A DNA stretch of 64,000 nucleotides from a virus (taxonomy: Duplodnaviria; Caudoviricetes), in the IMG/VR virus record IMGVR_UViG_3300007539_000018, positions 2,180-66,179 of that record; one strand, written 5' to 3'. Positions 34,168-60,293 of this stretch are shown here, one piece after another. Under the pieces are notes generated by a model. It was not told the origin of the DNA. It did not search any database and saw only the letters and a list, made by a program, of their open reading frames with translations. Made by a program: the position numbers and the translations under genes. Position 1 is the first letter of the stretch, and every line of letters begins with the position of its first letter.

Positions 34168-34192
34168 GTTGCTCAAACCTTCCTATTGTCTT

Positions 34193-37382: not shown

Positions 37383-37621
37383 TATTGTCCACCTACCTTT
37401 TCGACCATTTTATGAATGTCAGACCAGTCCATACTTCCAACATCTCCCATAGGAGAAGAAATACCGCTACCATTATTCATGTTTGGGCTTGGACTTTGAG
37501 AAACAACTAAACCGGACTTCATCAATAGATTATCCTGATGATATACTGTTTTTTCTAGATTTTCAATCTTTTCTGTTAAAGCCTTAAGAATGGCTAATAA
37601 CTCTTCATTTTGTTCTGTCAT
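37382..37621 (-). CDS. small coiled-coil protein sharing its C-terminal motif with the scaffold
   Basis: Ends MDWSDIHKMVEKVGGQ versus scaffold MEWSDIHKMVNNI. Confidence 0.75.
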   Translation of the reverse strand: MTEQNEELLAILKALTEKIENLEKTVYHQDNLLMKSGLVVSQSPSPNMNNGSGISSPMGDVGSMDWSDIHKMVEKVGGQ

Positions 37622-45734: not shown

Positions 45735-46259
45735 TTATTCTGTAATTCCCCAGTCATCCACATTGTCTAAGTGTTCTATTCTTTCATTCATGTATGCTAA
45801 TACATCATCAGGAATAGTTTTATGAGTTTTAGGTTTATTTAAGTCAAGTCCTAATTTTTTACGCATTCCAGTAAATCCTGCAATTCTTGGCATTCCTTTT
45901 ATTGGAGTTAATGCTTTTTCTCTTACTTCTCTCATTAATCCTTTACCTCGATAATCGGGGTGTGTTTTAGCACCACCAAAATAAGCATAGGGGCGGCCTT
46001 CTTTTCCTGTTTCAATTGCATTACCAACTACTGTAACTAATCTATTTTTTCCACCTTCTGTAACAATCATACCAAACCAATTATCAATAGGATATTTCCA
46101 TTTATTCTCGGAACGAAGTGTATGTGGCATATCGGGATTGCTTGCATCCCAAAGTTCTTTCATAGACTCTTCATCACCAAGTTGAATAACTTTGATTTTT
46201 TCATCCCCTGCCAACCTTCTAAGGTCGGGATGAAACTTAATGATGTGCCACCAACTCAT
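45735..46259 (-). CDS. GNAT-family acetyltransferase with leader MSWWHIIK
   Basis: Acetyl-CoA motif 'THPDYRGKGLMR'. Confidence 0.75.
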   Translation of the reverse strand: MSWWHIIKFHPDLRRLAGDEKIKVIQLGDEESMKELWDASNPDMPHTLRSENKWKYPIDNWFGMIVTEGGKNRLVTVVGNAIETGKEGRPYAYFGGAKTHPDYRGKGLMREVREKALTPIKGMPRIAGFTGMRKKLGLDLNKPKTHKTIPDDVLAYMNERIEHLDNVDDWGITE

Positions 46260-46263
46260 AATA

Positions 46264-46713
46264 TCACCATTTTACTTTGTTTGCCCAATAAGCGGCACTT
46301 GTCGGGCCTCTCTTAATGTTCTTTTGATGTCGGCTCTTAAATGATTTGCGCTTTGCTTTCATTCTTTTGCTTTCACCTTTCTTTGGTTTTCCGGCTACAC
46401 TTGCGCCTTGTTCACCAAATCGAATTGTTTTTGTTTTCTTGCCGTCTTTAACAACAACAACATGAGATTTCTTAGGATGCTTTGGTGTTCTCTTTGGCTT
46501 ACTAAAACCGGAAACTCCTGCTCTCTTTAATGCAGGGTGTTTCTTTCTAAGTAGTTTAAAGTCCTCGGCATCCAACTTTCCGTTCTTATTTTTATCAAGT
46601 TTCTTTTGCTTAGGACTTAAAGCCTTATTTGTTTTCTCTCTACAAGTTGCACAATCGCAACCCATTTTTTCTGTGCCACAATGGGCTTTTAAAACTTCTT
46701 TCCATTTACTCAT
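46264..46713 (-). CDS. basic modular protein with EF-hand-like motif; leader MSKWKEVLK
   Basis: 'LDKNKNGKLDAEDFKLL'; C-terminal 'IRFGEQG...SFKSRH...SAAYWANKVKW' recalled from marine phage proteins. Confidence 0.7.
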   Translation of the reverse strand: MSKWKEVLKAHCGTEKMGCDCATCREKTNKALSPKQKKLDKNKNGKLDAEDFKLLRKKHPALKRAGVSGFSKPKRTPKHPKKSHVVVVKDGKKTKTIRFGEQGASVAGKPKKGESKRMKAKRKSFKSRHQKNIKRGPTSAAYWANKVKW

Positions 46714-47111
46714 TTTTCTCGCCTCATTTGATTCTCTTTAGATTTTACATCATCATCAATTGGGCCACCTTTGGCCCAAGTATAACAAGTCCTTGCCGAA
46801 TGGCATTTAAAATCGTGCATCCAACAATAACCTAAACGACCGTCTTTATCAGTAGATAGTGGCATACATTCATCCATTCTAGGAGATATGTCAAATGCAA
46901 CGCAGTTACTACAATTAGATTTCTTAGCAACCTTGGCAGTAGTATTCCATCTTTTAGCGTATTCTTCCCAATACTTTTCATCATTTAGATTAAGAGGCCC
47001 ATATTGAATATGTTTTTCTTTAACGGCCCTATCTCGATTTTTAGTATTTAATTTTAAGTTCTGTGTTGGCATAGGGCAAGAGAGTTCTTTTATAATTATT
47101 TCCCAACTCAT
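46710..47111 (-). CDS. Cys-rich protein; leader MSWEIIIK
   Basis: CSNC...GYCWMHDFKCHSARTCYTW. Confidence 0.7.
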   Translation of the reverse strand: MSWEIIIKELSCPMPTQNLKLNTKNRDRAVKEKHIQYGPLNLNDEKYWEEYAKRWNTTAKVAKKSNCSNCVAFDISPRMDECMPLSTDKDGRLGYCWMHDFKCHSARTCYTWAKGGPIDDDVKSKENQMRREK

Positions 47112-47332
47112 CTTGTAAACGCCCCTCTTCTTTTAGGTTTGTGAGTATAAATGTCTCCATCTCGGTGCATAAATATTTTTCTTTTCTTTTGTAAATTAGA
47201 TAGTGCGGCTTTAATTTCAGATTCTTCTCCAAACTGTTTTAGATTCTTCATACCTAAAGCACCGCCTTCTTTTTTAATTTCAGCAAGAATCTTTGCTTCT
47301 ATGTCCATTTTTAATATATCTTGCCAATTCAT
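47108..47332 (-). CDS. small winged-helix-like protein; leader MNWQDILK
   Basis: Helix-turn-helix/wing-like spacing; coupled start and stop. Confidence 0.65.
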   Translation of the reverse strand: MNWQDILKMDIEAKILAEIKKEGGALGMKNLKQFGEESEIKAALSNLQKKRKIFMHRDGDIYTHKPKRRGAFTR

Positions 47333-47736
47333 GATTTTCCCTTCCTTTTTGGATAAGTTTTACAAGCGGCACAAGTTGGCCTACATCTTCTTTTAGTTCC
47401 CTTAGAAGCATCTGTTCTTCCGCAAGGTTTTTCTCCTTTTTTATCATCTTCACATGATTGACAAGAAACCCAACCTTTTTGACCATCTCCGCCTCTTCTT
47501 GAGAACCAACCGTGTAATCCCGATTCTTTTTCTCTTTTGAAATTATCTCCGCCTTTCTTTAGTTTTCCTTGACGGCAACGGGTCATATATCCTGATTTAT
47601 ATGCTGAACCTTTTAATCCATATGATTCATCAGCATTTAAAGCACAAGTATCTTTTTCCTCGCCCTTGCTGTTGTGAGTAGCAGTAGCCTTACCTGCCTT
47701 TTTCTTCTTTAATACTTCAAACCAAAGTTCAGTCAT
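47329..47736 (-). CDS. Cys-rich basic modular protein; leader MTELWFEVLK
   Basis: 'SAYKSGYMTRCRQGK' and 'GLHGWF...GWV...KPCGR...CRP' modules recalled from marine phage proteins. Confidence 0.7.
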   Translation of the reverse strand: MTELWFEVLKKKKAGKATATHNSKGEEKDTCALNADESYGLKGSAYKSGYMTRCRQGKLKKGGDNFKREKESGLHGWFSRRGGDGQKGWVSCQSCEDDKKGEKPCGRTDASKGTKRRCRPTCAACKTYPKRKGKS

Positions 47737-49010
47737 TACTTTTCACCTCGGCTTTGGTCTTCAACATCATACCTTTCAGTGCTTGAGCGAAGCATTTCAT
47801 CTTGAATACCTAATAAACAATTATATCTTCGTTCTGGAAACTTAAGACCAATATTCAAATACATATCCACCATGTTTTTATTAATCTTCCCTAAATTAGA
47901 ATACCTAACAAACTTTTGTTTATTTCCCATTAAATACTTGTCATCTCGAATAACTTTAATTAGACCTTTCCACATACCTTTAGTGATTTTTTTATTAGAC
48001 ATTTTAATTTTATTTTTTCGGGCCTTAACCAAATCAAACCAACTCCCTGTATTAGACTTAATCCACTTTTGTACTTGGTCTGCGTATTTGGTATCTTTTA
48101 GTTCTTCTCGGATTTCTTCGGGAAGTTCTTCAACTTTCATATCCGTAAATCCTCTTTTTCTAAATGAACCCCGTTCTGCTAATTCTTCATTAGCAACATT
48201 GATATACAAGGTTTTCCTTCCTTTCTCAGATAGAACCTTTTGAACACATAAACCAAATAGGCCCTTTCCTTTGTAGCCTTCTCTTGTATGAATACCTGCG
48301 CCAAGTAAGACACTCTTATACTTTGCTATTCCACAAACTGCTACGGGAGTTTCACCATCAAATGCTACAAACATTGTTGCCGGTGCATTTGCCCAAATAG
48401 AATCCCTTGAAAGGTTTGGGCCATAGCGCATACTTCTTTTCACATAATCAAAGTAGCCATCATCATTAAATGCTTTAACTGCGGCATCTTCGGACATCTC
48501 CTTGAAAGTAATATCACTTTCAGTATAGGTTTGCTTCTTGAAAGTAAGCCTTTGTCCTGTCGGGAAATCAGTAGAATATTCAGCATTTGCATCAAACACC
48601 ATTGTTCTATATTTATCCTCTATTTTTCCTTCGGGCGTAACAAAACTTGCACCTGTTTCATTTTTATTAGAAACTGCTATGGATTGTTGTTTATATTTAG
48701 CAGACAATTTATGAATTTTTTTCATTAAGTCTTCGGGAACATTAGTAAGCATAAAAGAAGGTTCTAATTCCCATTCAGCATTACCGGTAGCACTTGTAAT
48801 GGTAAACTGTGGCCTTTTCTTTTTTCTTAACTGTATATTTAACTCCTTTAAATCTTTAAGGAGAGCATCACTTAATCGGGATAATTCTTTACTTGGAGTC
48901 GGTTTGTTTGCTTCTTTAGCAGCAATAAAAACATTACTGTTTTTCTTGCGAAGGTTTCTTCTTATCTGCTTCTTATTATAGGCAGGAAGAGTAGTCTGTC
49001 GCTTCTTCAT
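47736..49010 (-). CDS. multidomain protein: T3 SAM-lyase-like domain + GNAT + C-terminal module
   Basis: 'TG..E.ELEPSF...KLSAKYKQQSIAV' (SAMase/DUF3293-like); GNAT 'HTREGYKGKGLF'; internal SWFDLVK. Confidence 0.6.
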   Translation of the reverse strand: MKKRQTTLPAYNKKQIRRNLRKKNSNVFIAAKEANKPTPSKELSRLSDALLKDLKELNIQLRKKKRPQFTITSATGNAEWELEPSFMLTNVPEDLMKKIHKLSAKYKQQSIAVSNKNETGASFVTPEGKIEDKYRTMVFDANAEYSTDFPTGQRLTFKKQTYTESDITFKEMSEDAAVKAFNDDGYFDYVKRSMRYGPNLSRDSIWANAPATMFVAFDGETPVAVCGIAKYKSVLLGAGIHTREGYKGKGLFGLCVQKVLSEKGRKTLYINVANEELAERGSFRKRGFTDMKVEELPEEIREELKDTKYADQVQKWIKSNTGSWFDLVKARKNKIKMSNKKITKGMWKGLIKVIRDDKYLMGNKQKFVRYSNLGKINKNMVDMYLNIGLKFPERRYNCLLGIQDEMLRSSTERYDVEDQSRGEK

Positions 49011-49014
49011 AACA

Positions 49015-51600
49015 TCACCTAAAGTTCGCTTTCAAAACATATACATGTTCTGCATCAATTCCGTATTCCTTAGCAATACCTTCAAAAGAATCTACTGCTT
49101 TAACTACTCCGATAATCTCACTGGCACTCATATCAATGTTGAAATCTGTTTCCATCTTAGTAATCATGTTTTCCATATCATCATAACTATTTTCACTTTT
49201 CATTGAATGAATAACGGGTTTCGATTTTAATATTCGTAAAGTATCATGTGCCTCAAGTAACTTTCGTTGTACTACGCTCTTAGTAACTTTATCCAACAAC
49301 GCCAATAGTTGTTTAGCCTTATCACTAGAAAAAGTTTCTGTATCTCCTTTTTCAGTTCTAATTTGTAAATTAGTTCCTCTCGTTTTAATAACATCAACTA
49401 GGGCTTGAATTGGATATATGTCAGTTGGGTCATTAGCATTCCTATCATCGTATAAATCACTCACCAATTCTTTATTTTTTGGGAATCTATTTTCTTTTTT
49501 ACTATCTATTTCCCTTTGTCCATCTTTGGGTATTAATCGGTAAATAGAACCCAATATTGAACCGATGTCCTTACTTAAGTTTTTAGTAACCTCATCATCA
49601 TCAAAAACATTCTTTAAGGTAAATAATAAAGTTCTAGAATCTTCATATAGGTCAGAATAATTAGTGATATTATTTGAACCTGCTAAAGTCTGCAAATATT
49701 TAATAATATCCTCAATGTCTTCTTCTTGCAAGAATGCAGTATCTCTTTCTAGTAATACTTTATTTATAGCAGTAATCGCTTTGTACTTTTCACCTATTGG
49801 CCTTGTTGCTGAAATTAACCTAATAGTAAAATCTCCCTCGAAGGGTAAACGAATACCTGCCCTGTATGGAGAAAATTGAGGGGCTAAGAAACAATTAGCC
49901 ATAGTTTTTGAAATGAGATTAATTGATATGCTTATTTCTTCATCTAAATCTTTTGCTTCTTTCATATCAGTTTTATCACTATCATATCTTTGAGAACCTT
50001 TTGAACCGGCTGCGTATTGCCCATAACTAAACCATATGAACGGTTTACCTGAACCTCTACTTACCATTCTATCTTCGGGGTCTTTTGATATTGGTGTTGT
50101 TCCTGCACCTGCCATATTTACATTCACTTGGCTAGAAAGAGTAGTTTTATCTTTTTCTATGAATTCTTTAAATAACTTTAGGAATTCATTTATTGAATCT
50201 TCTGTGTTTCTCGCTTTTCCAGATAAAGCCCGATATTCATTTGCTAAAGCAGAATCATTAGCCATAAATATAGGCAAGTACAATTCATCTCCAATGTCTT
50301 CCACAGATTCTAAACTTTCTAAAAAGTTTTCAAATGTTATATCAACATCTTTTTCTTGCAGGGTAGGGTAATTTGCATTATTGTCAGAAAGGTCATCAAA
50401 ATATTCTTTCAACTCTTCTTTTAATTCTTGTAAGTTGGTATTTACCATTCCGATTTCTTTTAATTGATTCCTGAAGTATATTAAACCTAATGGGTCTAAT
50501 GGGTGCTTTTCATCAAGAGTTTCAGAAAAACCTTCTATTTGAGCAGGTAAAGAATCTTCTTCTATCTTTTCATCTATATCGCTCGACTGTTGCATTTGTC
50601 CTTCTTGGTTATAATACTTACTATAATCAATATTTTCATATAACCCTACATCTTGAACTTCCATAATACCTCCGATATAATTTAAGAAACTTTCAAATGC
50701 TTCATAGGCAACTATATCTATATCTTTCACTGGTACTTCTGTTCTATCAAACTCATGTATATAGTTTAGTTTCTTTCTATTTTCTTCAAGTGAAATGAAC
50801 TTATATAGGGCTTGCATTTCCTTATCCTTTTCTGGTATTTTATCCAACAGTTTAGACAATTGTAGTAATTCTTCATCTAATTGTTGAAAAGAATTATTTC
50901 CCTTACCTATGCCTATATTCTTCCAATATTCATAGGTATCTTCTCTTTTTTCGAAGTTTTTCATGCTTTTTGCGTTAAAAACACTCTTAACATCGAAGCC
51001 AACAACCATTCTAGCACTGACTTGTTGGCTTTCTTTAGACTCTCTACGCCTACTATAAGAGTCCTGTATGCTCTCAAATAGACTACGCATGTTCCGTTTA
51101 ATGACATTTGTTGCTTGTGTGTCAGCAACAAATTCGCTTTTTTTGAGAATATTCTGCCATTTTCGCTTAATTTCATCCAAATCTATGGCTTTTTTACGCT
51201 TATCTCGCTTCATTCCACCATTAACTAACTCTATCTCATCCGGCTCAAAGTCATCCCGTATCATATCAGTAGCCTGTAATTTTCTGCCCATATACCTAAT
51301 TGCAGGTATGCTTCTAATTAAACCATTAAGTAGATTTTCATAAAGGGTAGCAGGAGTAGAAGCCCTACCAACGCCTCCCTTTGCTTTAAAGTAATCTTTT
51401 ATGTCTGCTATAATTTTATTTCTTGCTTTAATTTTGTCATCTCTATCTAAATCAATATATTTTTGGTTGAACATTGGCTCATATTTATTTCTTAACCTTC
51501 TAATTAGTCCAGCCTTAACTTTAGTTAATTCTCTATATTCATCATAATCTAGAACAGATTCATAATTATCTATATAGTTGGGCAAATACTCATATTGCAT
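49015..51600 (-). CDS. large acidic helical protein (861 aa)
   Basis: Long ORF; internal KWQNILKK. Confidence 0.7.
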   Translation of the reverse strand: MQYEYLPNYIDNYESVLDYDEYRELTKVKAGLIRRLRNKYEPMFNQKYIDLDRDDKIKARNKIIADIKDYFKAKGGVGRASTPATLYENLLNGLIRSIPAIRYMGRKLQATDMIRDDFEPDEIELVNGGMKRDKRKKAIDLDEIKRKWQNILKKSEFVADTQATNVIKRNMRSLFESIQDSYSRRRESKESQQVSARMVVGFDVKSVFNAKSMKNFEKREDTYEYWKNIGIGKGNNSFQQLDEELLQLSKLLDKIPEKDKEMQALYKFISLEENRKKLNYIHEFDRTEVPVKDIDIVAYEAFESFLNYIGGIMEVQDVGLYENIDYSKYYNQEGQMQQSSDIDEKIEEDSLPAQIEGFSETLDEKHPLDPLGLIYFRNQLKEIGMVNTNLQELKEELKEYFDDLSDNNANYPTLQEKDVDITFENFLESLESVEDIGDELYLPIFMANDSALANEYRALSGKARNTEDSINEFLKLFKEFIEKDKTTLSSQVNVNMAGAGTTPISKDPEDRMVSRGSGKPFIWFSYGQYAAGSKGSQRYDSDKTDMKEAKDLDEEISISINLISKTMANCFLAPQFSPYRAGIRLPFEGDFTIRLISATRPIGEKYKAITAINKVLLERDTAFLQEEDIEDIIKYLQTLAGSNNITNYSDLYEDSRTLLFTLKNVFDDDEVTKNLSKDIGSILGSIYRLIPKDGQREIDSKKENRFPKNKELVSDLYDDRNANDPTDIYPIQALVDVIKTRGTNLQIRTEKGDTETFSSDKAKQLLALLDKVTKSVVQRKLLEAHDTLRILKSKPVIHSMKSENSYDDMENMITKMETDFNIDMSASEIIGVVKAVDSFEGIAKEYGIDAEHVYVLKANFR

Positions 51601-51602
51601 AA

Positions 51603-53576
51603 CTATTCACTTTCCTGTTTTTTTTCCTTAAATATACGAGCATCTTTTAATAATTTAAAAGTTTCTCCTGAGAAAATGCCTGAATAAGATTCTTTATTTT
51701 TAATTAAGTAGTTTAAATGTAGTTTCAGTTCTTTCTTAAATAGAGTATTGACCTTTTTAAGCCCTATTAAGAGTTTTTTCGACAAGTCGCTTACTGCCTG
51801 TTCCAAGGTTGGGTCTGTAAGTGATAAGGCTTCTCCCTGCTCTTCTAAAATAGAGTCAATTTTTTCAACCTCACTATCTAAATTAGACTGGGCCACTTTA
51901 ACTACTAGATAATAAGCCATAATAAAACAATCAATAATATCATATTGTCTAGAGAGTCTACTGTAATATCTATCTAGATTACCGGAATCGAAAACCAAAT
52001 CAGAAAGGGAGTTTTTTGTCAATATTGCCCTTTCAATTGCAAATTTAATAGAATTTGGTTTAATTTCTGCTTTTTCTGCCGAACCTAAGTCTTCTGGTTG
52101 TAATTCTTCTGGATTTTCTTTAATAAACTGCTTAAAGTTTCGTTCTATGCGCCTAATTGTATTTATTCCTTTTTCATCAACGGCATGGTAAGCATCTCCA
52201 ACTTTAGAAAGGTCTTTTAAATCCTTTGATTCTGCAATTTCTTCGTAGTCGAGATAAATGTCCATCATTTTTTCAGATATTCTCCTGTTATTCAAATATC
52301 TTTCGTAATCTCTATCCAATGCTTCTTTAGCCCCTTCTTTATCTACATCAAAGTCTTTCCTTCTTTGAGAATACGCCACCGTAAATTGTTTTTTACCCAT
52401 AGCAGGTGTTACTTGGACTCCTTCAGTAGCATTCTTAAAAATAGAATCATTGTTTGGTGAAATTAGAATCCCTTTTACGAATCTAATAGATGCGATTTTC
52501 TTTCCACCCGCAGGAAAGTGTATGACTCTTGAAATTCTTTGGTTATTTAAGGTTCTCATATACAAATCTTTACTACCTTTGTTATTTACATTCCCTGCAA
52601 GCATTAAAACATTAAAATATTCTTCGATTTGCTTACCTGTTAATGACCCAATCACATCAACATTTTGTGAAGAGGCAGTTTCCATTTCATCTAATTTTAA
52701 TCTAGCAGTAAATGGTTCTTTACCAAGTAATAATGTTGGCAAAAATGGAGGAATACGGCTACTTATAGTTTCATCATCAGAAATATTACCTATTTTTTCT
52801 GCTAATTGTATAAATTCGCTACTTTCGGTCTTGCTTGAGCCACTTGGAGCATATTTTTCACTATCACTACTAGGAAAAACCTTTCTCCAAGTCTCGAAAC
52901 TTCTGCCGGATATGTTTTTTTCTCCTTTTTCCCAGCCTTCTATCATTTCTTTACCGGAAGGTTCTGCTAAAGAAAGTTCCGCCAAGCCAAAATTATAAAT
53001 TGGTCTTGCATTATCTAAAAACTCATCAACAGTAGGGGCATTTCCTTCTGGAATATTATTAACATATAACCTATAAAGCGGTTTTCTTTTTTCTTTAGGT
53101 ATATCTCTAATAAGGTTATACATATATGTGTTGTTTTTAAACCTATTTGTTAAGTATTTAAATAATTTATCTAAGTTGGACTTAACATCCTTATTAGAAA
53201 AAATATTTTTTAGAGTAGAATCTAATGTTGAAACAGAAGAAGAATATATTTTAGATATATGTTCCCTAATTTTAACAAAGTTATTAAAAATAGTATTGTT
53301 AATTTCTTCTCTACCTTTACCTTCATTATTTTCTCTATCTTTTTTGAGTTGAGTTACCCAATCATCATACAATTTCCTATATTTGTTTGATTTTTTGAAT
53401 GCTCTTTTTAATGACTGATAGGAATTAATATCGCTAAACTCTTGAACCAATTCCATGACTGGTTCAATGTTTTTACTCCTGCCCTTTCTACCAGTAGTTA
53501 ATGCTATTTGAGCATCAGTAGAAGCATCTGAAACTAAAACTAATTTAGTCAAGTCAGAAATCGGGGGAAAACTCAT
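51603..53576 (-). CDS. large hypothetical protein (657 aa)
   Basis: Long ORF, translationally coupled. Confidence 0.7.
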   Translation of the reverse strand: MSFPPISDLTKLVLVSDASTDAQIALTTGRKGRSKNIEPVMELVQEFSDINSYQSLKRAFKKSNKYRKLYDDWVTQLKKDRENNEGKGREEINNTIFNNFVKIREHISKIYSSSVSTLDSTLKNIFSNKDVKSNLDKLFKYLTNRFKNNTYMYNLIRDIPKEKRKPLYRLYVNNIPEGNAPTVDEFLDNARPIYNFGLAELSLAEPSGKEMIEGWEKGEKNISGRSFETWRKVFPSSDSEKYAPSGSSKTESSEFIQLAEKIGNISDDETISSRIPPFLPTLLLGKEPFTARLKLDEMETASSQNVDVIGSLTGKQIEEYFNVLMLAGNVNNKGSKDLYMRTLNNQRISRVIHFPAGGKKIASIRFVKGILISPNNDSIFKNATEGVQVTPAMGKKQFTVAYSQRRKDFDVDKEGAKEALDRDYERYLNNRRISEKMMDIYLDYEEIAESKDLKDLSKVGDAYHAVDEKGINTIRRIERNFKQFIKENPEELQPEDLGSAEKAEIKPNSIKFAIERAILTKNSLSDLVFDSGNLDRYYSRLSRQYDIIDCFIMAYYLVVKVAQSNLDSEVEKIDSILEEQGEALSLTDPTLEQAVSDLSKKLLIGLKKVNTLFKKELKLHLNYLIKNKESYSGIFSGETFKLLKDARIFKEKKQESE

Positions 53577-54025: not shown

Positions 54026-54678
54026 TGTAATCTCTCCTGCATTTTCTTTTTAATATCAAGCCAAATCTCAGGATTGTTCTGTGCTAACACTTCTTGAACA
54101 ACCTGCATTTGTGCGACAATAATTGTATCTTGTCTCTTGTGAACAAGTTTGCCTTTGAACTCAAGTAGATACTTTAATGACTCTCGAACTTCTTTTGCGA
54201 GTTTAGTAAGACTATCAATCTCTCTTGGTTCTAAATCTGTATTAAGGAACAAGTCATTCAATTTATCATCTAAGCGTTGAACATTCGCACTCAGCAAATC
54301 AATCTCATTAACTTCCTTTTTCGCTATGATAGCGGCTGCGGATTGCTGCACCAAAGGTGCTAAGTGGTGCTTCATGTGTCGTTGCACCTGTGTTTTTGTG
54401 ATGTCTAAGGCTTGAGAAATACCCTCACTTGTTATATTACCATTAGAAAGGGCTTCCTCGTAGTGTTTCCGCATAGGGTCAATACATAACTTGCATTTGG
54501 GGTTACTGCTGTTTGTATATTCACCCATGTGATTTCTTTGATGTTGGGCCGCAGTACCACTTCTCCAATCATTTCTTGAATCTAAATCATCGCAACTTGT
54601 CATACCTTGTTCAATTGCGGCTTCCATACTTTCTCTATCACCATGCTGACAAAAGGCACATCTCTTTCTTGTTATCAT
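54022..54678 (-). CDS. putative terminase small subunit (two CxxC...H..H zinc/HTH repeats + coiled coil)
   Basis: CAFCQH...HQRNH and CKLC...RHMKHH, then a helical oligomerisation region; start ATG 54678 after GGGTGA. Confidence 0.5.
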   Translation of the reverse strand: MITRKRCAFCQHGDRESMEAAIEQGMTSCDDLDSRNDWRSGTAAQHQRNHMGEYTNSSNPKCKLCIDPMRKHYEEALSNGNITSEGISQALDITKTQVQRHMKHHLAPLVQQSAAAIIAKKEVNEIDLLSANVQRLDDKLNDLFLNTDLEPREIDSLTKLAKEVRESLKYLLEFKGKLVHKRQDTIIVAQMQVVQEVLAQNNPEIWLDIKKKMQERLQ

Positions 54679-54992
54679 TCTTTCACCCACATCGTTGTTT
54701 TTAAATCACTAGTGTTTCCGCTTAGTTCTTTTGTAGTATATCCGTAGTTTCTTAGTAATTTAGAATACGCTCTTAAACTTTCTTGCTTACCTTTTAGTCT
54801 ATTAAGCCCTGCTTTTTCTTCTCTAGTTCCTAATTCATTAACTACTTCAGTATAAGTTGATATTAGTTTTTCATCCAAATCTTTAGTGTTGATTCCTTTA
54901 CCGTCTAATTCTTCTACAATTCTTCTAATTGTTTCTTTAACTAATTGAAAATTAAATTTCTTTCTTTTTAAGATACTGAACCAAACATCAAT
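54675..54992 (-). CDS. hypothetical protein; leader (M)DVWFSILK, apparent ATT start
   Basis: Frame is open upstream of the track's TTG and carries WFSILK; no ATG/GTG/TTG between it and the preceding in-frame TAA. Confidence 0.55.
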   Translation of the reverse strand: MDVWFSILKRKKFNFQLVKETIRRIVEELDGKGINTKDLDEKLISTYTEVVNELGTREEKAGLNRLKGKQESLRAYSKLLRNYGYTTKELSGNTSDLKTTMWVKE

Positions 54993-56103
54993 CCCTCCAA
55001 AGTTGTTCCATCCAAGATTTCTTTACTGGTTCGGGAACTTTAGTTTTACCCCTGATATCTAAGTAATTACCATTCTTAAGTTTATAAGTTTCTTTACCAA
55101 TCACCTTCATAATTAAGGAAACCATAGCGGCCTTTCCAAATGGCTGTAATTGAAATGTTTCTATGGGACTAGCCAAATTAGGCAACTTACCCACATATTG
55201 AACAATCAACTGTGGTTTTGCAGACCTAGAACCAAAAGACTTTGTTCCGACAGCAAACTGCATACCCTGTAATATAGCAGCCATTTGTTGCAATTTAGGT
55301 TTACCTCCAGAAAATAAATCACTTCTCTTTAACAAAGAAAAAACTTGTTTTCTTACAGAAGGTATAAGAGCCAAAGAACCCGCACTTCTTTGCACCTTGA
55401 GTTGGATATTAGGAATAGGTTTTTTTCGTATTTCTTGTATCGCTTCTGATATTATATCATATAGGCCTACTTTCACCAAGTCGCCCTTCCCATAAATAGC
55501 CTGTGCTAATGGGGGATTAGCAGTATTAGGAGTCTTACTCCACCAACCTTTCTTTTCAGCAAGACCGTATTTATCTTCAAAGTAATTATCTCGATAATGA
55601 CCGTAAATTGTTTGTTTTTTATCATCTAATATATCTATTTTATTTTTAGCACGACTACCTTTTCTTGGTTTCCCTTTACCTACTTTCCATCTTGTCGGTC
55701 TAGTAAAAATAGTATTTCTAGGATTAAGAGTGGGGCTTTTGGTAATACCATCAAGTTTTTCTTTCAATTCCAAAAAGTCTTCTAAGTCATCCACATCAAA
55801 TACGCTTTTATTTGCTATTAATTCATAAATATCATCTAAGGTTTCAAATATACCATCGCTACCAGTATTCTTAGAATTATCTCTAAGGTACTTTCTTACA
55901 TGTTGTTGCAATTGTAAGTACAATGTTTTGGGGTAAGTTTGTCTACCAACTTTGGCGTAAGGACTTCCTGTACTTGCTATATCTTCGGAACTATGCCCAT
56001 TACAAATTTTTTTCCAATCCAAAAACTTTTTCTTAAAATCATAAGAAGGGGCTTGTATTTTATTACCGTTAATATCAACTGTTGATTTCTTCGTCTTCGT
56101 CAT
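54988..56103 (-). CDS. basic hypothetical protein (~371 aa)
   Basis: Start MTKTKK after GGAGGTGA; ends 'VKKSWMEQLWRD'. Confidence 0.7.
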   Translation of the reverse strand: MTKTKKSTVDINGNKIQAPSYDFKKKFLDWKKICNGHSSEDIASTGSPYAKVGRQTYPKTLYLQLQQHVRKYLRDNSKNTGSDGIFETLDDIYELIANKSVFDVDDLEDFLELKEKLDGITKSPTLNPRNTIFTRPTRWKVGKGKPRKGSRAKNKIDILDDKKQTIYGHYRDNYFEDKYGLAEKKGWWSKTPNTANPPLAQAIYGKGDLVKVGLYDIISEAIQEIRKKPIPNIQLKVQRSAGSLALIPSVRKQVFSLLKRSDLFSGGKPKLQQMAAILQGMQFAVGTKSFGSRSAKPQLIVQYVGKLPNLASPIETFQLQPFGKAAMVSLIMKVIGKETYKLKNGNYLDIRGKTKVPEPVKKSWMEQLWRD

Positions 56104-56242
56104 CTTCATCACCTCCGTATTTGATATTGAACTTTGAAGGGTCGCTACCATGACCCCCAAACGCTACACCTCCGGCTTCCTTATTCAAGTTGCCGCAGGA
56201 TTCGCAACAAGAGCCTTTGATTATATCCCACCAAGTTACCAT
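56075..56242 (-). CDS. 55-aa protein with leader MVTWWDIIK (absent from the ORF track)
   Basis: Hand-translated MVTWWDIIKGSCCESCGNLNKEAGGVAFGGHGSDPSKFNIKYGGDEDDEDEEINS; fills the gap between genes. Confidence 0.75.
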   Translation of the reverse strand: MVTWWDIIKGSCCESCGNLNKEAGGVAFGGHGSDPSKFNIKYGGDEDDEDEEINS

Positions 56243-56796
56243 TTGAACATCAACTTCCTCAAAATCGTACCTATTTTGTCTTTACTGAAATCTTTTCTTT
56301 CAATCGTAACTATTCTTCTAACTGGGGAGCGGGAACTACCGTTATCATTCATAAATATCAAATGTAAAACAATATCTACATCTTCCTCTTTACTAGCAAT
56401 AAGTTCGATTTTAATATTACCCTTTGAACTTTCAAAAGGAGTGTACTGGTAATGACTATCACCATAACCTTTCAATTCATGGTCGATTGCCATAACTAAA
56501 CCAGAAACTAAAACATCTGCAAAACCTTCCTTCAAATAATCTAGTAATTCACAATATTCTTTTTCCGTCGCCTTGCGCTTATCGTTCAGGCTATACTTGT
56601 GCTTTATTAATAAAGATGGAAAATCAAATTCTTTTGGGTTTGTTTCATGTTCATGTTTTTGTTCCGAATACCAAGCATTGAAGTCCCTTTCGCAAGAATT
56701 ATCCTCAACATTAACTTTAAGTCGAGAAGTATCTAGTTTACCACCAGTTTTTCCCTTGCCTCTAATTTTGGCATTTTTAAGAATATCCCACCACAT
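56236..56796 (-). CDS. paralog family member 3; leader MWWDILK
   Basis: Shares 'KGK...LDTSRLKVN.....C' with the two upstream genes. Confidence 0.75.
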   Translation of the reverse strand: MWWDILKNAKIRGKGKTGGKLDTSRLKVNVEDNSCERDFNAWYSEQKHEHETNPKEFDFPSLLIKHKYSLNDKRKATEKEYCELLDYLKEGFADVLVSGLVMAIDHELKGYGDSHYQYTPFESSKGNIKIELIASKEEDVDIVLHLIFMNDNGSSRSPVRRIVTIERKDFSKDKIGTILRKLMFKW

Positions 56797-57446
56797 TATT
56801 CCCACCAACTATAACCAAATTTTCTTGCGTCATAAAATCCAGAAACTTGATAAACATTATTAGGCGTTCCTCTCTCAAAATCCTCATAATAAGAATCAGT
56901 TCCTGCGCTTAAATCTTCTCCATTAGACCAACCAATCACAACTAATTGCATTTTATCTTTTGAAATAACCAATGAAGTGGTATTGGATTGAAATTCATAA
57001 AAACTATCAATAACTATACTATATCCGTCAATCTCTTCTTTGTCTTCACTACCATAATCACCAGTTGTAGATTTTTTAAGCATATCAATTGCTTTACATG
57101 CTACATTTTCGGGAACAGGTTCATATTTATAATAAGTCTCTTCATATAAATAAGCATGACTACCCGAATCAAAGTCTTTAGAAGTTGGTTTTTGAAGAAT
57201 AGTAAAATTTTTTGCCCTATCATTCTGTTCTTCTTTGAAGACTGCAAAGTGCTTTTTTAGCAATTCATTACCATTATAGCGTTCTCTCAAAAGCAAACTA
57301 TAATTCTTTAATTTTCTTGCCCACGCTTGTAATTGTTTATTACAATTATCATCTTGGATATTAACCTTTAATCTAGAAGTATCGAGAGTAGAACCTTTAC
57401 CTTTGGCTTTGCCTTTGAGATTTTTTAGAATATCGAACCAACTCAT
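56796..57446 (-). CDS. paralog family member 2; leader MSWFDILK
   Basis: 'KGKGSTLDTSRLKVNIQDDNC', 'PENVACKAI'. Confidence 0.75.
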   Translation of the reverse strand: MSWFDILKNLKGKAKGKGSTLDTSRLKVNIQDDNCNKQLQAWARKLKNYSLLLRERYNGNELLKKHFAVFKEEQNDRAKNFTILQKPTSKDFDSGSHAYLYEETYYKYEPVPENVACKAIDMLKKSTTGDYGSEDKEEIDGYSIVIDSFYEFQSNTTSLVISKDKMQLVVIGWSNGEDLSAGTDSYYEDFERGTPNNVYQVSGFYDARKFGYSWWE

Positions 57447-57883
57447 AGAAGTTTCCTCCATTCTTCCCAATCCTTAGAGAACACATATAATTCAAAAACC
57501 ATTTTGTCCTCTAAGGTTATCTTTTTATTAACAACACATTTTACCAATAAACCACCAGTGAGGCCAAATTCTTCATTAATAACATGATTCAATCTATTCC
57601 AATAACTAACTTCATACCCCATATAATTTTCAACTTTCCGATTTTCAGAATCAAGTGTTATATTTTGAAGGTCTTTTATAATTAAACATGCTACCTCTTC
57701 AGGCATTTGTTCCCAGTTCTCATAGATGTGTGTGACAGAACTCAGCCGACTTTCCATTATTAGTTTTCTAAGTTTCTCTTTACATTCATCGTATTGAATA
57801 TTAACCTTTAATCTAGAAGTATCTAAAGTTTTACCTTTGCCTTTTGCAGACAACTTGGCATTCTTCAAAATATTCCACCACAT
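57443..57883 (-). CDS. paralog family member 1; leader MWWNILK
   Basis: 'KGKGKTLDTSRLKVNIQYDEC', 'PEEVACLII'. Confidence 0.75.
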   Translation of the reverse strand: MWWNILKNAKLSAKGKGKTLDTSRLKVNIQYDECKEKLRKLIMESRLSSVTHIYENWEQMPEEVACLIIKDLQNITLDSENRKVENYMGYEVSYWNRLNHVINEEFGLTGGLLVKCVVNKKITLEDKMVFELYVFSKDWEEWRKLL

Positions 57884-57888
57884 TATAA

Positions 57889-58653
57889 TTACTTCCTTTT
57901 GCCTTCAAACATCTTATCTTTGTTTTTGGGTTCAATCATCTTAATTGACTTAGGAACAGAAGCACCACGCATATTACAGCGTCTAAGAATAACTTCTCCT
58001 TTAACATTACACTTAGTAAAATCAACGCCTCTTAAGTCGCAATCTTCAAATGTAACATTTCCAAGAGTAGCATTCTTAAAATCTGCTCTACTAAAGTTAC
58101 ACAGTTTAATTACACCGGCAGGGTCTTGCTTTCGATAAAAAGCAAAAAGAGCGTTCTTAAAACTACAACGCTTAAATGATATTTTCTTGAGTCGAATAGG
58201 AGTGGTTTTCTTTCCTGTCTTTCTTGTAAACTTACCTTCGCCACTTGGTTTCGGTTCGGGTTTGGATAAATCCAATTCATACTTACCTTTCTTCTTTTGT
58301 CCGGTTTGAGCAATTCCTTCAAACTTAGAACGACCAGTGCGACCTGTTCTATTACTTTCTTTTGCTTCCTTTCGGCTGACTCTTTCTTCTACCAAGCGAC
58401 CTCTTTCATCTCGCTTAGGTGGATATTTCATTTCAGTATATTTAACAGACTTTCTTCGGTCTATCAGTTTACCATTGAATTTTTCACCATCAAAGGATTT
58501 ACCATCCATAATCAAGTATTGTCCGGCAGGTAGTGTACTACTGAACTTTTCTTTTCTATCAACGAATCCCTCAACATGGCCTTCGTCAGTAACCTTTCTT
58601 TTCTTGGCTTCTATTTTATCCCACTTTCGCTTTAGAATACTTTGCCAACTCAT
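57889..58653 (-). CDS. basic protein with C-terminal pentapeptide repeats; leader MSWQSILK
   Basis: 'CSFKN ALF..CNFSR ADFKN ATLGN VTFED CDLRG VDFTK' pentapeptide pattern. Confidence 0.75.
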   Translation of the reverse strand: MSWQSILKRKWDKIEAKKRKVTDEGHVEGFVDRKEKFSSTLPAGQYLIMDGKSFDGEKFNGKLIDRRKSVKYTEMKYPPKRDERGRLVEERVSRKEAKESNRTGRTGRSKFEGIAQTGQKKKGKYELDLSKPEPKPSGEGKFTRKTGKKTTPIRLKKISFKRCSFKNALFAFYRKQDPAGVIKLCNFSRADFKNATLGNVTFEDCDLRGVDFTKCNVKGEVILRRCNMRGASVPKSIKMIEPKNKDKMFEGKRK

Positions 58654-58662
58654 ATAATCAAC

Positions 58663-59349
58663 TCACTCTTTAATAATACCTTTCCAATCCATTTTATTTG
58701 CCTGTTGAAAGGTTTCTGAAAACTTATCGCCAGTAATGTCAATATCTGGTTCTGTTTCCTGTGAAAGTTTTTTAGAGTCATCTACTACTTTACGAACAAG
58801 CGCACTTGTTAAAATAGCAATATAATCAACAAATGCACCGCTTCTCATAACTGGAATAATTGCTTGGGTAAGTTCATGTCTTTTCATACTAGGGCTATCC
58901 GACATTTTTCTATCAACAATTTTAGTTATTTCTTTTCTAGACTCAACCATGACCTTTTCCGAAACATCGTTAATTACCTCTTGTAGTGATTGCATCAATT
59001 CCTCGGAATCTGGCTTTTCATCATCATTTGGCTTTTTTTCTTCTATGTTTGATACTGTATCTCTTTCTATAATATCTAACCTTTCTTCCATTTCTGGGTC
59101 GTTTAGCATATCTAATCCAACAAGCATCGGTTCTAATAGAAGAACTTCTGCCATTTTTCTTTTATCAGTAACAGTAAGACCTTCTTCATTTTCAAGTGCT
59201 TTAAGAGCATCACCTAAAAGATTTCCACCTAATTCAGTCAATTGACTGGTAAGTTGAATTTTTCCGAGAACCTTAGCATAAATACCTCTAGAGTTTTTAA
59301 TTACATCTCTAAACGAGAAGTCTGCTTTAATGATGTTTTCCCAATTCAT
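58663..59349 (-). CDS. helical protein with the motif at both ends (MNWENIIK ... MDWKGIIKE)
   Basis: Direct reading of the translation. Confidence 0.7.
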   Translation of the reverse strand: MNWENIIKADFSFRDVIKNSRGIYAKVLGKIQLTSQLTELGGNLLGDALKALENEEGLTVTDKRKMAEVLLLEPMLVGLDMLNDPEMEERLDIIERDTVSNIEEKKPNDDEKPDSEELMQSLQEVINDVSEKVMVESRKEITKIVDRKMSDSPSMKRHELTQAIIPVMRSGAFVDYIAILTSALVRKVVDDSKKLSQETEPDIDITGDKFSETFQQANKMDWKGIIKE

Positions 59350-59353
59350 TCTA

Positions 59354-59581
59354 TTATCCCTTCTGTTTCAGTAATTTTCTCATTTCGTCGAGCATACTCT
59401 CTAATTGTTTTATTACCGTAGTTGAGGGAGTATTACCGTAAGCACCTTTATAATCATCATTAGCATCTTCCGTAAAGTTATTCAATTTTTTCAAAAAATC
59501 ACTCATCGCTTGTGCATTTTTATCCATATAAAGTCTAAACTCTTTATCATCTTCTTCTTTTATTATTTCTTCCCAAGTCAT
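59354..59581 (-). CDS. small protein; leader MTWEEIIK
   Basis: ORF with GGGGA RBS. Confidence 0.7.
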   Translation of the reverse strand: MTWEEIIKEEDDKEFRLYMDKNAQAMSDFLKKLNNFTEDANDDYKGAYGNTPSTTVIKQLESMLDEMRKLLKQKG

Positions 59582-59593
59582 GTTATTATCCCC

Positions 59594-59977
59594 TTAATCT
59601 TCTGAATCTAGTCGCTTGCTTTGTGCTAGTTCAATTGAATCTATTCTAAACAATTTCTCATCATCTTTAAAATTAGTTGCTATAACAACTATTGTATCTT
59701 CATCGTATTTCCTGAGTTTGCCAGTTATTTTTAATTTAGTCTCCATAAAGGTTTTATCTCTAAGACCTTTAAAAAATCTAGTGTTCGTAACTTTTACAGG
59801 ATGCTTCTTTTCCATTGACCTAATCAATTTACCGAGTGCTTCCTTAGTTCCTTTATGCCCTCTAAGGTCATCTTCAACAGCATCAATTAATATTTGGTTA
59901 GCACTAAATAGCCTTTTATTTGTCCTACGGTTTCTTTCACCCATAACTTCTTTTCTAATTGTATCTTCCCAACTCAT
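59594..59977 (-). CDS. small protein; leader variant MSWEDTIRK
   Basis: ORF with GGAG RBS. Confidence 0.7.
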   Translation of the reverse strand: MSWEDTIRKEVMGERNRRTNKRLFSANQILIDAVEDDLRGHKGTKEALGKLIRSMEKKHPVKVTNTRFFKGLRDKTFMETKLKITGKLRKYDEDTIVVIATNFKDDEKLFRIDSIELAQSKRLDSED

Positions 59978-59981
59978 GTTA

Positions 59982-60293
59982 TTATCTCCTCTTTTTTTTG
60001 CTAAATAATTTATGTGTGTAATAGGCGTTCATTGGTTCTCCCATTCCAGTTACTCTTACACCCACATTATATTTTCCATCTCGAAGGTGAAATTCAACCT
60101 CAATTTCAGCATTAGGTAAAAAACCATCAAGTTCTTTTTGTAAGAATGTCTCTAATTTATCTGCTTCTTCTTTACTAGGTTCAACATGCCTTTTTAAATT
60201 ACGATTAAGTAAATAGTCTATTTTACCCTTTACCTTTTTCATAGCCTTTTCCCTATCTTGATAAGGGCCTTTGACTATTTCTTTCCAATTCAT
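59982..60293 (-). CDS. small protein; leader MNWKEIVK; first gene of the array
   Basis: ORF with GGGGA RBS. Confidence 0.7.
   Translation of the reverse strand: MNWKEIVKGPYQDREKAMKKVKGKIDYLLNRNLKRHVEPSKEEADKLETFLQKELDGFLPNAEIEVEFHLRDGKYNVGVRVTGMGEPMNAYYTHKLFSKKKRR

What the first reader, a model, noticed from the sequence alone, without database searches (positions are those of the whole stretch)
45735..60293. Shared N-terminal W-x-x-[ILV]-[ILV]-K leader on ~17 unrelated proteins: candidate capsid-loading tag for a variable virion cargo
Seen in sequence: otherwise unrelated proteins start MSWWHIIK (46259), MSKWKEVLK (46713), MSWEIIIK (47111), MNWQDILK (47332), MTELWFEVLK (47736), MSWKSILK (54025), xDVWFSILK (54992), MVTWWDIIK (56242), MWWDILK (56796), MSWFDILK (57446), MWWNILK (57883), MSWQSILK (58653), MNWENIIK (59349), MTWEEIIK (59581), MSWEDTIRK (59977), MNWKEIVK (60293), plus MDWFDLIK (24547) in the neck region. 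Codons vary between copies, so conservation looks protein-level. No replication, tail or early gene starts this way. Established: T4 internal proteins use a ~10-residue N-terminal capsid-targeting sequence that gp21 cleaves. Inference: this is an analogous archaeal-virus sorting tag that loads many accessory effectors into the prohead for delivery at infection; I am not aware of a description of it.
Basis: partly seen in the sequence, partly recalled or inferred. Interest (0 to 1): 0.92.

Follow-up and report, generated by a model that had tools for sequence, protein, structure and literature searches.

The report
Shared address tag on magrovirus proteins
In this uncultured ocean archaeal virus, most small genes beside the head-assembly genes start with the same eight amino acids, most likely a removable label that loads a fast-changing set of proteins into the young capsid, though neither loading nor cutting has been shown.

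Summary
In the window, 16 of 21 minus-strand genes between 45735 and 60293, plus one at 24547, begin M-x-W-x-x-[ILV]-[ILV]-K. Protein shuffles expect 0.09. Conservation is at protein level, because synonymous codons vary.

In 80 related IMG/VR loci plus the window there are 555 distinct tagged proteins in 213 BLAST-unrelated families. In five complete ~96-kb relatives, 70 hits lie on the terminase strand, 69 of them within about 17 kb of the terminase gene. Two sister lineages with the same head module lack the tag.

The first half of the tag resembles the C-terminal tail of the virus's own protease-scaffold. The second half (I-L-K) resembles conserved sites that flank the HK97-type protease domain and sit in the capsid protein N-terminus. 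HK97 protease cuts after a lysine (PMC10275583).

Best reading (about 0.5): a portable prohead-addressing and processing tag, working like the T4 capsid-targeting sequence. Nothing shows packaging or cleavage.

The scan had noted the same tag in at least eight related genomes. I found no published description.

The parts
45735..46259 (-). Tagged gene, 174 aa, starts MSWWHIIK; weak GNAT hit
46264..46713 (-). Tagged gene, 149 aa, starts MSKWKEVLK. It has an EF-hand-like module followed by a phrog_7595 module (residues 57-149). The phage homologues of that module carry no tag.
46710..47111 (-). Tagged gene, 133 aa, starts MSWEIIIK. Cys-rich module. Phage homologues are annotated as high-potential iron-sulfur protein, and their matches begin after the tag.
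47108..47332 (-). Tagged gene, 74 aa, starts MNWQDILK. In relatives this small module is either stand-alone behind the tag or fused behind other modules.
47329..47736 (-). Tagged gene, 135 aa, starts MTELWFEVLK. Its internal junction ...GKLKK|GGDNF corresponds to a tagged stand-alone gene in locus L022.
47736..49010 (-). 424-aa ORF with no N-terminal tag but two internal copies: SWFDLVK (W at 48041) and MWKGLIK (W at 47972). Weak SAM-lyase and GNAT hits.
49015..51600 (-). 861-aa conserved ORF with no N-terminal tag and one internal copy, KWQNILK (W at 51159)
53573..54025 (-). Tagged gene, 150 aa, starts MSWKSILK
54675..54992 (-). Tag copy WFSILK (W at 54983) in an open frame with no in-frame ATG, GTG or TTG before it. 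The start is unresolved; relatives use TTG.
56075..56242 (-). Tagged gene, 55 aa, starts MVTWWDIIK
56236..57883 (-). Three tandem paralogous tagged genes (MWWDILK at 56796, MSWFDILK at 57446, MWWNILK at 57883)
57889..58653 (-). Tagged gene, 254 aa, starts MSWQSILK; pentapeptide-repeat domain
58663..59349 (-). Tagged gene, 228 aa, starts MNWENIIK and also ends with a tag copy, MDWKGIIKE-stop (W at 58686)
59354..59581 (-). Tagged gene, 75 aa, starts MTWEEIIK
59594..59977 (-). Tagged gene, 127 aa, with the variant tag MSWEDTIRK
59982..60293 (-). Tagged gene, 103 aa, starts MNWKEIVK
23954..24547 (-). The only tagged gene outside the cluster: 197 aa, pI 10.4, starts MDWFDLIK
32944..34176 (-). Prohead serine protease (Pfam S78) fused to a scaffold. 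Tag-like features:
- F-x-I-L-K|S at 34117-34140
- FDILK|Q at 33658-33681
- C-terminal tail MEWSDIHK at 32962-32985
37382..37621 (-). 79-aa head-module protein with N-proximal LAILK and a C-terminal MDWSDIHK (37409-37432), the same motif as the scaffold tail
31594..32931 (-). Major capsid protein. An invariant L-L-K lies at residues 27-29 (within 32845-32859), behind a loop of variable length.
44292..45725 (-). Large terminase subunit. The tagged genes lie upstream of it in the window. In relatives they also lie between it and the portal gene.

Best explanation
The eight-residue start M-[SNT]-W-x-[DEN]-I-L-K is a portable peptide tag specific to one magrovirus lineage, and it belongs to head assembly.

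Proposed mechanism (inferred):
- The first half (M-S-W-x-D-I) copies the C-terminal tail of the virus's own protease-scaffold protein. It docks the tagged protein where that tail docks inside the assembling prohead, on the capsid protein or another prohead component.
- The second half (I-L-K) is a site for the HK97-type (S78) prohead protease, which cuts after the Lys. This removes the tag and separates the modules of fused proteins.
- A hypervariable set of mostly small, often basic accessory proteins is thereby enclosed in the capsid and enters the host with the DNA.

Shown: the tag's existence, its protein-level conservation, its portability, its restriction by genome region and by lineage, and its resemblance to the scaffold tail and to conserved h-h-K sites.

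Inferred: binding, cleavage, packaging and delivery.
For: 1. Reality and scale.
- 17 copies in the window.
- 591 ATG-started copies on the terminase strand in 80 related loci (1.35 Mb), none at an ORF start of 40 aa or more on the other strand.
- 555 distinct tagged proteins in 213 BLAST-unrelated families, counted over the 80 loci plus the window.
- Nothing is conserved after the Lys.

2. Protein level. All synonymous codons are used.

3. Place. In five complete 96-kb relatives the strict DNA pattern hits 16, 16, 17, 12 and 9 times on the terminase strand. It hits once on the other strand, and that hit contains a stop. The reversed control gives 0. All but one of the 70 hits lie from about 17 kb upstream to 4 kb downstream of the terminase gene. 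Relatives also carry tagged genes between terminase and portal.

4. Add-on character. Homologues in cultured bacteriophages lack the tag: Roseobacter phage CRP-1 gp66, Synechococcus phage S-CBS2 gp046, and the Actinomycetia phage DSL-LC01 protein annotated as an iron-sulfur protein. One module occurs directly behind the tag, or behind other modules, in different relatives.

5. Link to the head.
- I built a PSSM from 203 family representatives taken from other loci and scanned it over 19,786 window 8-mers. After the tags and their internal copies, the best hits are the tail of the 79-aa head protein (10.3 bits) and the scaffold tail (8.8 bits). The two protease-domain flanks rank 22 and 23.
- The scaffold-tail W is invariant in 26 sequences.
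- In the second tag-bearing lineage the tail reads [ML]-[ST]-W-[GD]-[DE]-[ILV]-H.
- In a tag-less sister lineage the tail reads W-R-A-[AL]-E.

6. Protease site.
- [FY]-x-[IL]-L-K flanks the S78 domain on both sides, in all 67 close sequences at the N-flank, in the P0123-like lineage and in the 35%-identical sister lineage.
- F16, K20, L172 and K173 are invariant.
- The C-flank lies in a stretch with pLDDT below 50, between the protease core and the scaffold helix.
- L-L-K in the capsid protein N-terminus is kept in all 61 sequences examined.
- h-h-K occurs in the first 32 residues of 6 of 9 head-module proteins, against 3 of 39 other proteins. The count drops ORFs under 60 aa, the terminase-upstream cluster and the tagged gene at 24547 (Fisher p=4.7e-4).
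- HK97 protease, of the same Pfam family, cuts at K103/S104 (PMC10275583, passage).

7. Internal tag copies at module junctions are conserved across orthologues.

8. Tagged proteins are small and often basic: median 117 aa, median pI 9.2.

9. Precedent. T4 internal proteins are diverse and share only a capsid targeting sequence (PMC3012670, passages).
Against: - There are no data on virion content, N-termini or timing.
- The resemblances are short. The protease flanks score only 2.8-3.3 bits and lack the W. The scaffold tail has I-H-K or I-H-N rather than I-L-K, so 'tail half plus site half' is a reading of similarity, not a demonstration.
- h-h-K tripeptides are common, at 0.2-2.4 per 100 residues.
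- The cluster begins right after the strand-switch region, where early or middle genes would also be expected.
- Some tagged proteins in relatives are large (591-811 aa), and about 16 cargo species per genome is a lot.
- Not all module junctions carry h-h-K.
- An internal copy sits in a conserved 861-aa core protein.
- The W is almost always at residue 2-4. That fits recognition of a free N-terminus and is not explained by a protease site alone.
- Host genomes were not scanned.
Confidence: 0.5

Rival explanations
1. Processing signal only. The h-h-K end of the motif is where the prohead protease, or another Lys-specific protease, trims pro-proteins and separates the modules of fused proteins. 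The products are transient head-internal helpers, or act in the cytoplasm, and are not delivered cargo.
For: - Internal copies at junctions of multi-module proteins, and junction remnants that keep I-L-K without the W.
- Conserved h-h-K at the protease-domain borders and in the capsid protein.
- The HK97 precedent for cutting after Lys.
Against: - An 8-residue propeptide on more than 200 unrelated stand-alone families needs a reason beyond cutting.
- The invariant W, and its fixed distance from the N-terminus, are not features of the protease's own flanks.
- Sister lineages keep the same predicted sites without having the tag.
Confidence: 0.2
2. Short docking motif for a partner outside the capsid. 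Examples would be a host hub protein or a viral chaperone or regulator that all these accessory proteins must contact. There would be no packaging.
For: W, I and L would lie on one face of a short helix, as in many linear docking motifs (inference). The function of nearly all bodies is unknown.
Against: - The motif's best non-tag matches in the whole window are the tails of two head-module proteins and the protease flanks.
- The genes lie on the structural strand around terminase and portal.
- No candidate partner was identified.
Confidence: 0.15
3. Inherited start with little function of its own. The genes descend from one ancestor by duplication and fast divergence. Alternatively, new genes are captured behind an existing start by recombination at the tag, so the tag marks a cassette boundary.
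For: - Tandem paralogues (56236-57883 here; a triplet in L059).
- Frequent fusion, fission and module exchange at the tag.
- A truncated tag copy at the end of the 228-aa ORF, 9 nt before the next tagged start.
Against: - With synonymous sites free, W, I/V, L and K are still kept across 213 unrelated families and two sub-lineages. That needs selection on the peptide.
- Acquired phage modules gained the tag.
Confidence: 0.08
4. Nucleic-acid signal. The conserved bases serve translation initiation, mRNA structure or recombination rather than the peptide.
For: Codon preference at the Ile, Leu and Val positions differs somewhat from body usage (p<1e-3). Genes are tightly coupled, with overlapping stop and start codons.
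Against: - All synonymous codons occur, and Lys codons match body usage.
- The tag works with ATG, GTG, TTG and possibly ATT starts.
- It is also kept in-frame inside long proteins.
Confidence: 0.03

Closest known systems
Capsid targeting sequence (CTS) of phage T4 internal proteins (IPI-III, Alt)
   Same: A very short N-terminal peptide is the only thing shared by a diverse, fast-evolving set of proteins (PMC3012670, passages read). By my recollection, the T4 tag ends at the prohead protease's cleavage consensus and is removed.
   Different: - No sequence similarity.
- The protease here is HK97-type (Pfam S78), with a putative cut after Lys rather than Glu (the T4 specificity is recalled).
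- The host is an archaeon.
- The number of tagged families is far larger (213 in 81 genomic pieces).
- The tag also occurs internally at module junctions.
- The tag resembles the scaffold's own tail.
- Nothing has been tested experimentally.
HK97 maturation protease: cleavage at K103/S104 and capsid targeting through the protease's own C-terminal part
   Same: Same protease family. Cleavage after Lys (PMC10275583, passage). A terminal segment of an internal protein is used as the encapsidation signal (Duda, Oh and Hendrix 2013; I saw only the title, in a reference list, and the content is recalled).
   Different: In HK97 the signal is on the protease itself and at the C-terminus. No family of unrelated cargo proteins carries it. 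Here the protease is fused to a separate scaffold domain.
Encapsulin cargo-loading peptides
   Same: Short terminal peptides address unrelated cargo to the inner face of an HK97-fold shell (recalled).
   Different: Encapsulins have no portal, terminase, genome or protease step. Their peptides are mostly C-terminal. Here the shell is a tailed-virus capsid.
Ejection or inner-body proteins of giant phages (SPN3US, phiKZ), processed by the prohead protease
   Same: Many head-internal proteins carry propeptides removed by the prohead protease and enter the host (abstracts of PMC5694885 and PMC7411985, seen in the listing).
   Different: Those propeptides are long and not a uniform 8-mer. The proteins are conserved core components rather than a hypervariable accessory pool.

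Membership tests
T4-type capsid targeting sequence | Short N-terminal peptide shared by otherwise unrelated proteins of one virus | tested here: met
   17 copies in the window. 555 proteins in 213 unrelated families in relatives plus the window.
T4-type capsid targeting sequence | Peptide ends at the cleavage consensus of the virus's prohead protease and is removed | tested here: inconclusive
   I-L-K matches the conserved [FY]-x-[IL]-L-K flanks of the S78 domain and the L-L-K of the capsid protein. There are no cleavage data.
T4-type capsid targeting sequence | Tag is sufficient to enclose a protein in the prohead; tagged proteins are in virions | not testable with these tools
   Needs proteomics or a reporter assay.
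T4-type capsid targeting sequence | Common descent with the T4 system (T4-type protease and core) | tested here: not met
   The protease matches Pfam PF04586 Peptidase_S78 and PHROG head maturation protease families of HK97 type. The capsid protein matches SU10_MCP. So this works like a CTS but is not a member.
Substrates of HK97-type (S78) prohead proteases | Virus encodes an S78 protease | tested here: met
   PF04586, E=6.6e-10, residues 22-176 of the 410-aa protein.
Substrates of HK97-type (S78) prohead proteases | Candidate site recurs, positionally conserved, in accepted substrates (protease itself, capsid protein) | tested here: met
   Both domain flanks and the capsid protein site are conserved in three lineages, down to 35% identity. 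The C-flank lies in a low-confidence linker.
Substrates of HK97-type (S78) prohead proteases | Actual cleavage after the Lys | not testable with these tools
   Only a precedent exists: HK97 K103/S104.
Encapsulin cargo-loading system | HK97-fold shell without portal, terminase or genome packaging | tested here: not met
   Terminase, portal, protease and tail genes are present.
MuF-type polymorphic head cargo (portal-associated N-terminal domain fused to variable C-termini) | N-terminal MuF/SPP1 gp7-like domain | tested here: not met
   No such Pfam hit in 20 proteins scanned. The shared part is only 8 residues.
Magroviruses (tailed viruses of Poseidoniales) | ~100-kb genome; halovirus-like head module with an ATP-dependent ligase and a homing-endonuclease gene embedded in it (PMC5434244, passages) | tested here: inconclusive
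   A ligase lies between portal and protease. Complete relatives are 93-99 kb. The 453-aa ORF between terminase and portal has no Pfam hit; it looks LAGLIDADG-like by eye only. No named reference genome was compared.

The most novel reading that the evidence does not exclude
One lineage of abundant ocean archaeal viruses has evolved a general-purpose cargo-loading system. Any protein given the 8-residue start, which combines a copy of the scaffold tail with a protease site, is enclosed in the capsid, trimmed and delivered with the DNA. The capsid then carries a rapidly exchanged cocktail drawn from more than 200 protein families, many captured from bacteriophages. This would be the first protein-delivery tag known in an archaeal virus, and a natural, minimal handle for loading foreign proteins into an HK97-type capsid.
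Probability: 0.4. Interest if true: 0.85.

Novelty: new variant of a known kind. Interest (0 to 1): 0.68.

Why it matters
Magroviruses are reported to dominate the archaeal virome of surface oceans (PMC5434244, passage). Most of their genes are unannotated.

If the tag is an address label, it would assign a place (inside the capsid) and a time (first minutes of infection) to about a fifth of the genes of these viruses at once. It would point to the accessory genes most likely to fight host defences. It would also show that the T4 solution, a tiny removable tag on a changing set of internal proteins, arose independently with an HK97-type protease in the archaeal domain.

The tag is only eight residues long and the head genes are few. 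The idea can therefore be tested by heterologous expression, without cultivating the host.

Tried and rejected
- Complex prediction. I submitted the protease domain (residues 21-168, 24-row alignment) with the 74-aa tagged protein (7-row alignment). The result was 'no answer': scores 0.09 and 0.01 against a mark of 0.32, and the controls were not run. This counts neither for nor against binding. I had only one job, so capsid protein with tag and capsid protein with scaffold tail were not tried.

- RNA evidence. Four metatranscriptome runs from one study hold short contigs at 90% likeness or more across 19-28 of 30 bins of 42000-61500. Contigs cannot show transcription, strand, level or timing, and DNA may be present in such libraries. 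No conclusion is drawn.

- GenBank phage collection. Searching with the terminase found only distant phage terminases at 28% identity or less, so no annotated close relative was available.

- Pfam and PHROGs on the tagged proteins gave almost nothing.

- Search for a different shared N-terminal tag in the two tag-less sister lineages. A crude k-mer enrichment found only single orthologous families.

- Host proteomes were not scanned. The controls I have are the rest of the viral genomes and the sister lineages.

- 'Unrelated' rests on BLASTP at 1e-4 with single linkage. Remote homology among families is not excluded, and the largest cluster (91 members) may be joined through Lys-rich low-complexity segments.

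- Loci sets. Only the best 80 loci per search were returned: 80 of 240, 80 of 568, 80 of 93, 80 of 176 and 80 of 188 confirmed stretches. For the P0123-like lineage I counted only its 56 new loci.

- Supplements of the magrovirus papers are closed. Their gene tables might mention these genes. The statement that the tag is not in print rests only. One search was too permissive to be informative.

Full report
**What is there.** The window is almost all of a 66,179-bp virus record. On the minus strand, one tightly packed gene array runs from about 60.6 kb down to 6.5 kb. It contains:
- large terminase, 44292-45725 (phrog_38, E=5e-56)
- portal, 41124-42764
- an ATP-dependent ligase, 34215-36737
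- an S78 prohead protease fused to a scaffold, 32944-34176
- the major capsid protein, 31594-32931

The plus-strand genes include an ERCC4 nuclease and a PD-(D/E)XK nuclease. A ligase embedded in the head module, and complete relatives of 93-99 kb, fit the published description of magroviruses (PMC5434244, passages). I did not compare a named reference genome.

- A six-frame scan finds 17 ORF-start copies of W-x-x-[ILV]-[ILV]-K on the minus strand: 16 of the 21 genes between 45735 and 60293, and one at 24547.
- Fifteen have an ATG 0-3 codons before the W. 59977 is a one-residue-longer variant. The 54983 copy has no in-frame start.
- Within-protein shuffles give 0.094 such starts, against 14 found with my crude gene caller.
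- Ribosome-binding-like GGAGG or GGGGA precedes the starts.
- Four further copies are internal or C-terminal.

**Protein level, not DNA level.** In the window the Ile, Leu and Lys codons of the tag differ from gene to gene. I took one representative of each of 213 families. Lys AAA/AAG matches body usage (p=0.30). All Ile, Leu and Val codons occur, though with a shifted preference (p<1e-3). In relatives the tag also follows GTG (21), TTG (20) and perhaps ATT (21) starts.

**Scale and place.**
- Eighty IMG/VR loci with a terminase 81-99% identical (the best 80 of 240 confirmed) hold 591 ATG-started copies on the terminase strand. None heads an ORF of 40 aa or more on the other strand.
- The copies lie upstream of the terminase gene and 3-5 kb downstream, between terminase and portal.
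- The consensus is M-[SNT]-W-[KEQF]-[DNE]-I-L-K, with nothing conserved behind the Lys.
- With the tag removed, the 555 distinct proteins (80 loci plus the window) fall into 213 BLAST-unrelated groups.
- They are small (median 117 aa) and often basic (median pI 9.2; 52% above pI 9).
- In five complete relatives a strict DNA pattern hits 70 times on the terminase strand. It hits once on the other strand, with a stop inside, and never in the reversed control. All but one hit lie within about -17 to +4 kb of the terminase gene. Replication and tail modules are free of the tag.

**Lineage-specific.**
- A representative search with the terminase gave lineages at 74%, 41% and 38% identity.
- The 74% lineage has the tag: 344 copies in 56 new loci, 3.36 per 10 kb.
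- The 41% and 38% lineages do not: 0.05 and 0.09 per 10 kb, against 4.37. They nevertheless share the same head-gene order.
- A crude search found no other shared tag in those two lineages.

**An add-on to mobile modules.**
- The C-terminal module of the 149-aa protein is phrog_7595. It is 52-73% identical to stand-alone proteins of roseophages, cyanophages and others, and these begin without the tag.
- The Cys-rich body of the 133-aa protein matches phage proteins annotated as high-potential iron-sulfur protein, from residue 11-24 onward. In Actinomycetia phage DSL-LC01 it is the C-terminal domain of a 244-aa protein whose gene lies next to genes annotated as capsid maturation protease.
- Within the lineage, the module of the 74-aa protein stands directly behind the tag in some genomes. 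In others it stands behind one or two other modules, or in front of others.
- Of the 146 copies not preceded by ATG, 54 lie more than 40 residues inside ORFs. Several sit at junctions where the downstream module is a tagged stand-alone gene elsewhere. Some junctions keep only I-L-K, and others keep nothing.

**Link to head assembly.** I built a PSSM from 203 family representatives taken from other loci and ran it over all 19,786 8-mers of the window's ORFs.
- Ranks 1-13, 15, 16, 18 and 19 are the tags and their internal copies.
- Rank 14 is MDWSDIHK, near the C-terminus of a 79-aa head-module protein.
- Rank 17 is MEWSDIHK, the C-terminal tail of the protease-scaffold.
- Ranks 22 and 23 are the two flanks of the protease domain, NDEFNILK and EAKFDILK.

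Supporting detail on the scaffold tail:
- The tail W is invariant in 26 aligned protease-scaffolds.
- AlphaFold2 puts a short helix there (residues 400-408; mean pLDDT 63).
- In the second tag-bearing lineage the tail reads [ML]-[ST]-W-[GD]-[DE]-[ILV]-H.
- In a tag-less lineage it reads W-R-A-[AL]-E. The tag therefore resembles the tail form of exactly the lineages that have the tag. This is one phylogenetic contrast, not several.

**Link to the protease.**
- [FY]-x-[IL]-L-K followed by S, and [FY]-[DT]-[IL]-L-K, bracket the S78 domain in all three lineages examined, down to 35% identity.
- The second site lies in residues 162-182, where pLDDT is below 50, between the folded core (17-160) and the scaffold helix.
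- The capsid protein keeps L-L-K behind a variable loop in all 61 sequences.
- h-h-K occurs in the first 32 residues of 6 of 9 head-module proteins, against 3 of 39 others. The count is over ORFs of 60 aa or more and leaves out the terminase-upstream cluster and the tagged gene at 24547 (p=4.7e-4).
- HK97, of the same protease family, cuts its capsid protein at K103/S104 (PMC10275583, passage).
- These are resemblances. The tripeptide is common, and no cut has been observed.

**Reading.** The tag looks like a fusion of two head-assembly signals: a copy of the scaffold tail and a protease site. That is how the T4 capsid targeting sequence works. The T4 head review describes the internal proteins as diverse defence proteins sharing only that sequence (PMC3012670). 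I put about 0.5 on this reading, with packaging and delivery as its least secure part. The rivals are a processing site without delivery, a docking motif for another partner, an inherited cassette boundary, and a nucleic-acid signal. Each is listed with its evidence.

**Status.** The scan had already noted the same tag in at least eight related genomes, and six of those notes had follow-up reports with the same reading. Those are not independent evidence.
- the lineage contrast
- the family count
- the PSSM ranking
- the conserved protease flanks in three lineages
- the enrichment of N-proximal h-h-K in head proteins
- the untagged phage homologues
- the module-junction copies

I found no description in print. 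'magrovirus' occurs in 22 held papers. Two key papers have no hit for N-terminal, leader or related terms on this topic. Only three papers hold both 'magrovirus' and 'N-terminal', and none is on this subject. Supplements could not be read.

Noticed in passing
window 54675-55022 (-): The tag copy WFSILK has no in-frame ATG, GTG or TTG before it. An out-of-frame ATG lies two codons upstream, just behind a GGAGG. Homologues in relatives start with TTG two codons before the W. Possible explanations are a 1-nt indel, a decayed start or an unusual start.
   Followed up: partly
loci L007, L008, L014, L038, L047, L057, L059, L065, L078 and others: In one family (W-R-x-I-L-K-AKSKRQ...) the tag is preceded by ATT-AAT, with a GGTGG about 9 nt upstream and no ATG in the frame (20 cases). 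Either ATT serves as the start codon, or the tag is internal to a short upstream extension.
   Followed up: partly
window 37382-37621 (-): A 79-aa head-module protein has an N-proximal LAILK and ends with nearly the same MDWSDIHKMV motif as the protease-scaffold. It may be a second protein that uses the scaffold's docking site.
   Followed up: partly
window 58663-59349 (-): The 228-aa tagged ORF also ends in a tag copy (MDWKGIIKE-stop), 9 nt before the next tagged start. This looks like the stump of a deleted gene read through from upstream.
   Followed up: no
window 46557-47207: In three of four RNA-library runs, the summed contig depth over the Cys-rich iron-sulfur-like gene is 62-585, against single digits in nearly every other bin. 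A contig joint skips 46834-47035 at depth 274-632. The contigs may come from other abundant viruses that carry this module.
   Followed up: no
L388 (Actinomycetia phage DSL-LC01, OQ999401.1 63051-68722): The phage homologue of the Cys-rich module lies directly upstream of three genes annotated as capsid maturation protease and behind a very large ORF. In a Manatee Spring phage it lies a few genes upstream of a virion structural protein and the terminase genes.
   Followed up: partly
window 42929-44290 (-): A 453-aa ORF between terminase and portal has no Pfam hit at E<=0.001. By eye it has a LAGLIDADG-like segment, matching the homing-endonuclease gene reported in magrovirus head modules (PMC5434244).
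   Followed up: partly
loci L066, L069, L070, L075 (629-694-aa ORFs): Long proteins carry two internal tag copies about 187 residues apart, each followed by a similar segment. They look like tandem repeated modules that each begin with the tag, fused into one ORF.
   Followed up: no
window 2751-3446 (+) and 347-1276 (+): The plus-strand arm encodes an ERCC4/XPF-type nuclease with helix-hairpin-helix motifs and a PD-(D/E)XK nuclease.
   Followed up: no
window 37618-37992 (-) and sister-lineage protease N-termini (L321, L322): A W lies 9-13 residues before an h-h-K site in the 124-aa head protein (MNTMTWDFYEEGKEIILK) and in the sister-lineage proteases (for example MNTATWSAVGQDFILK). This may be a longer ancestral form of the W-plus-site arrangement.
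   Followed up: no
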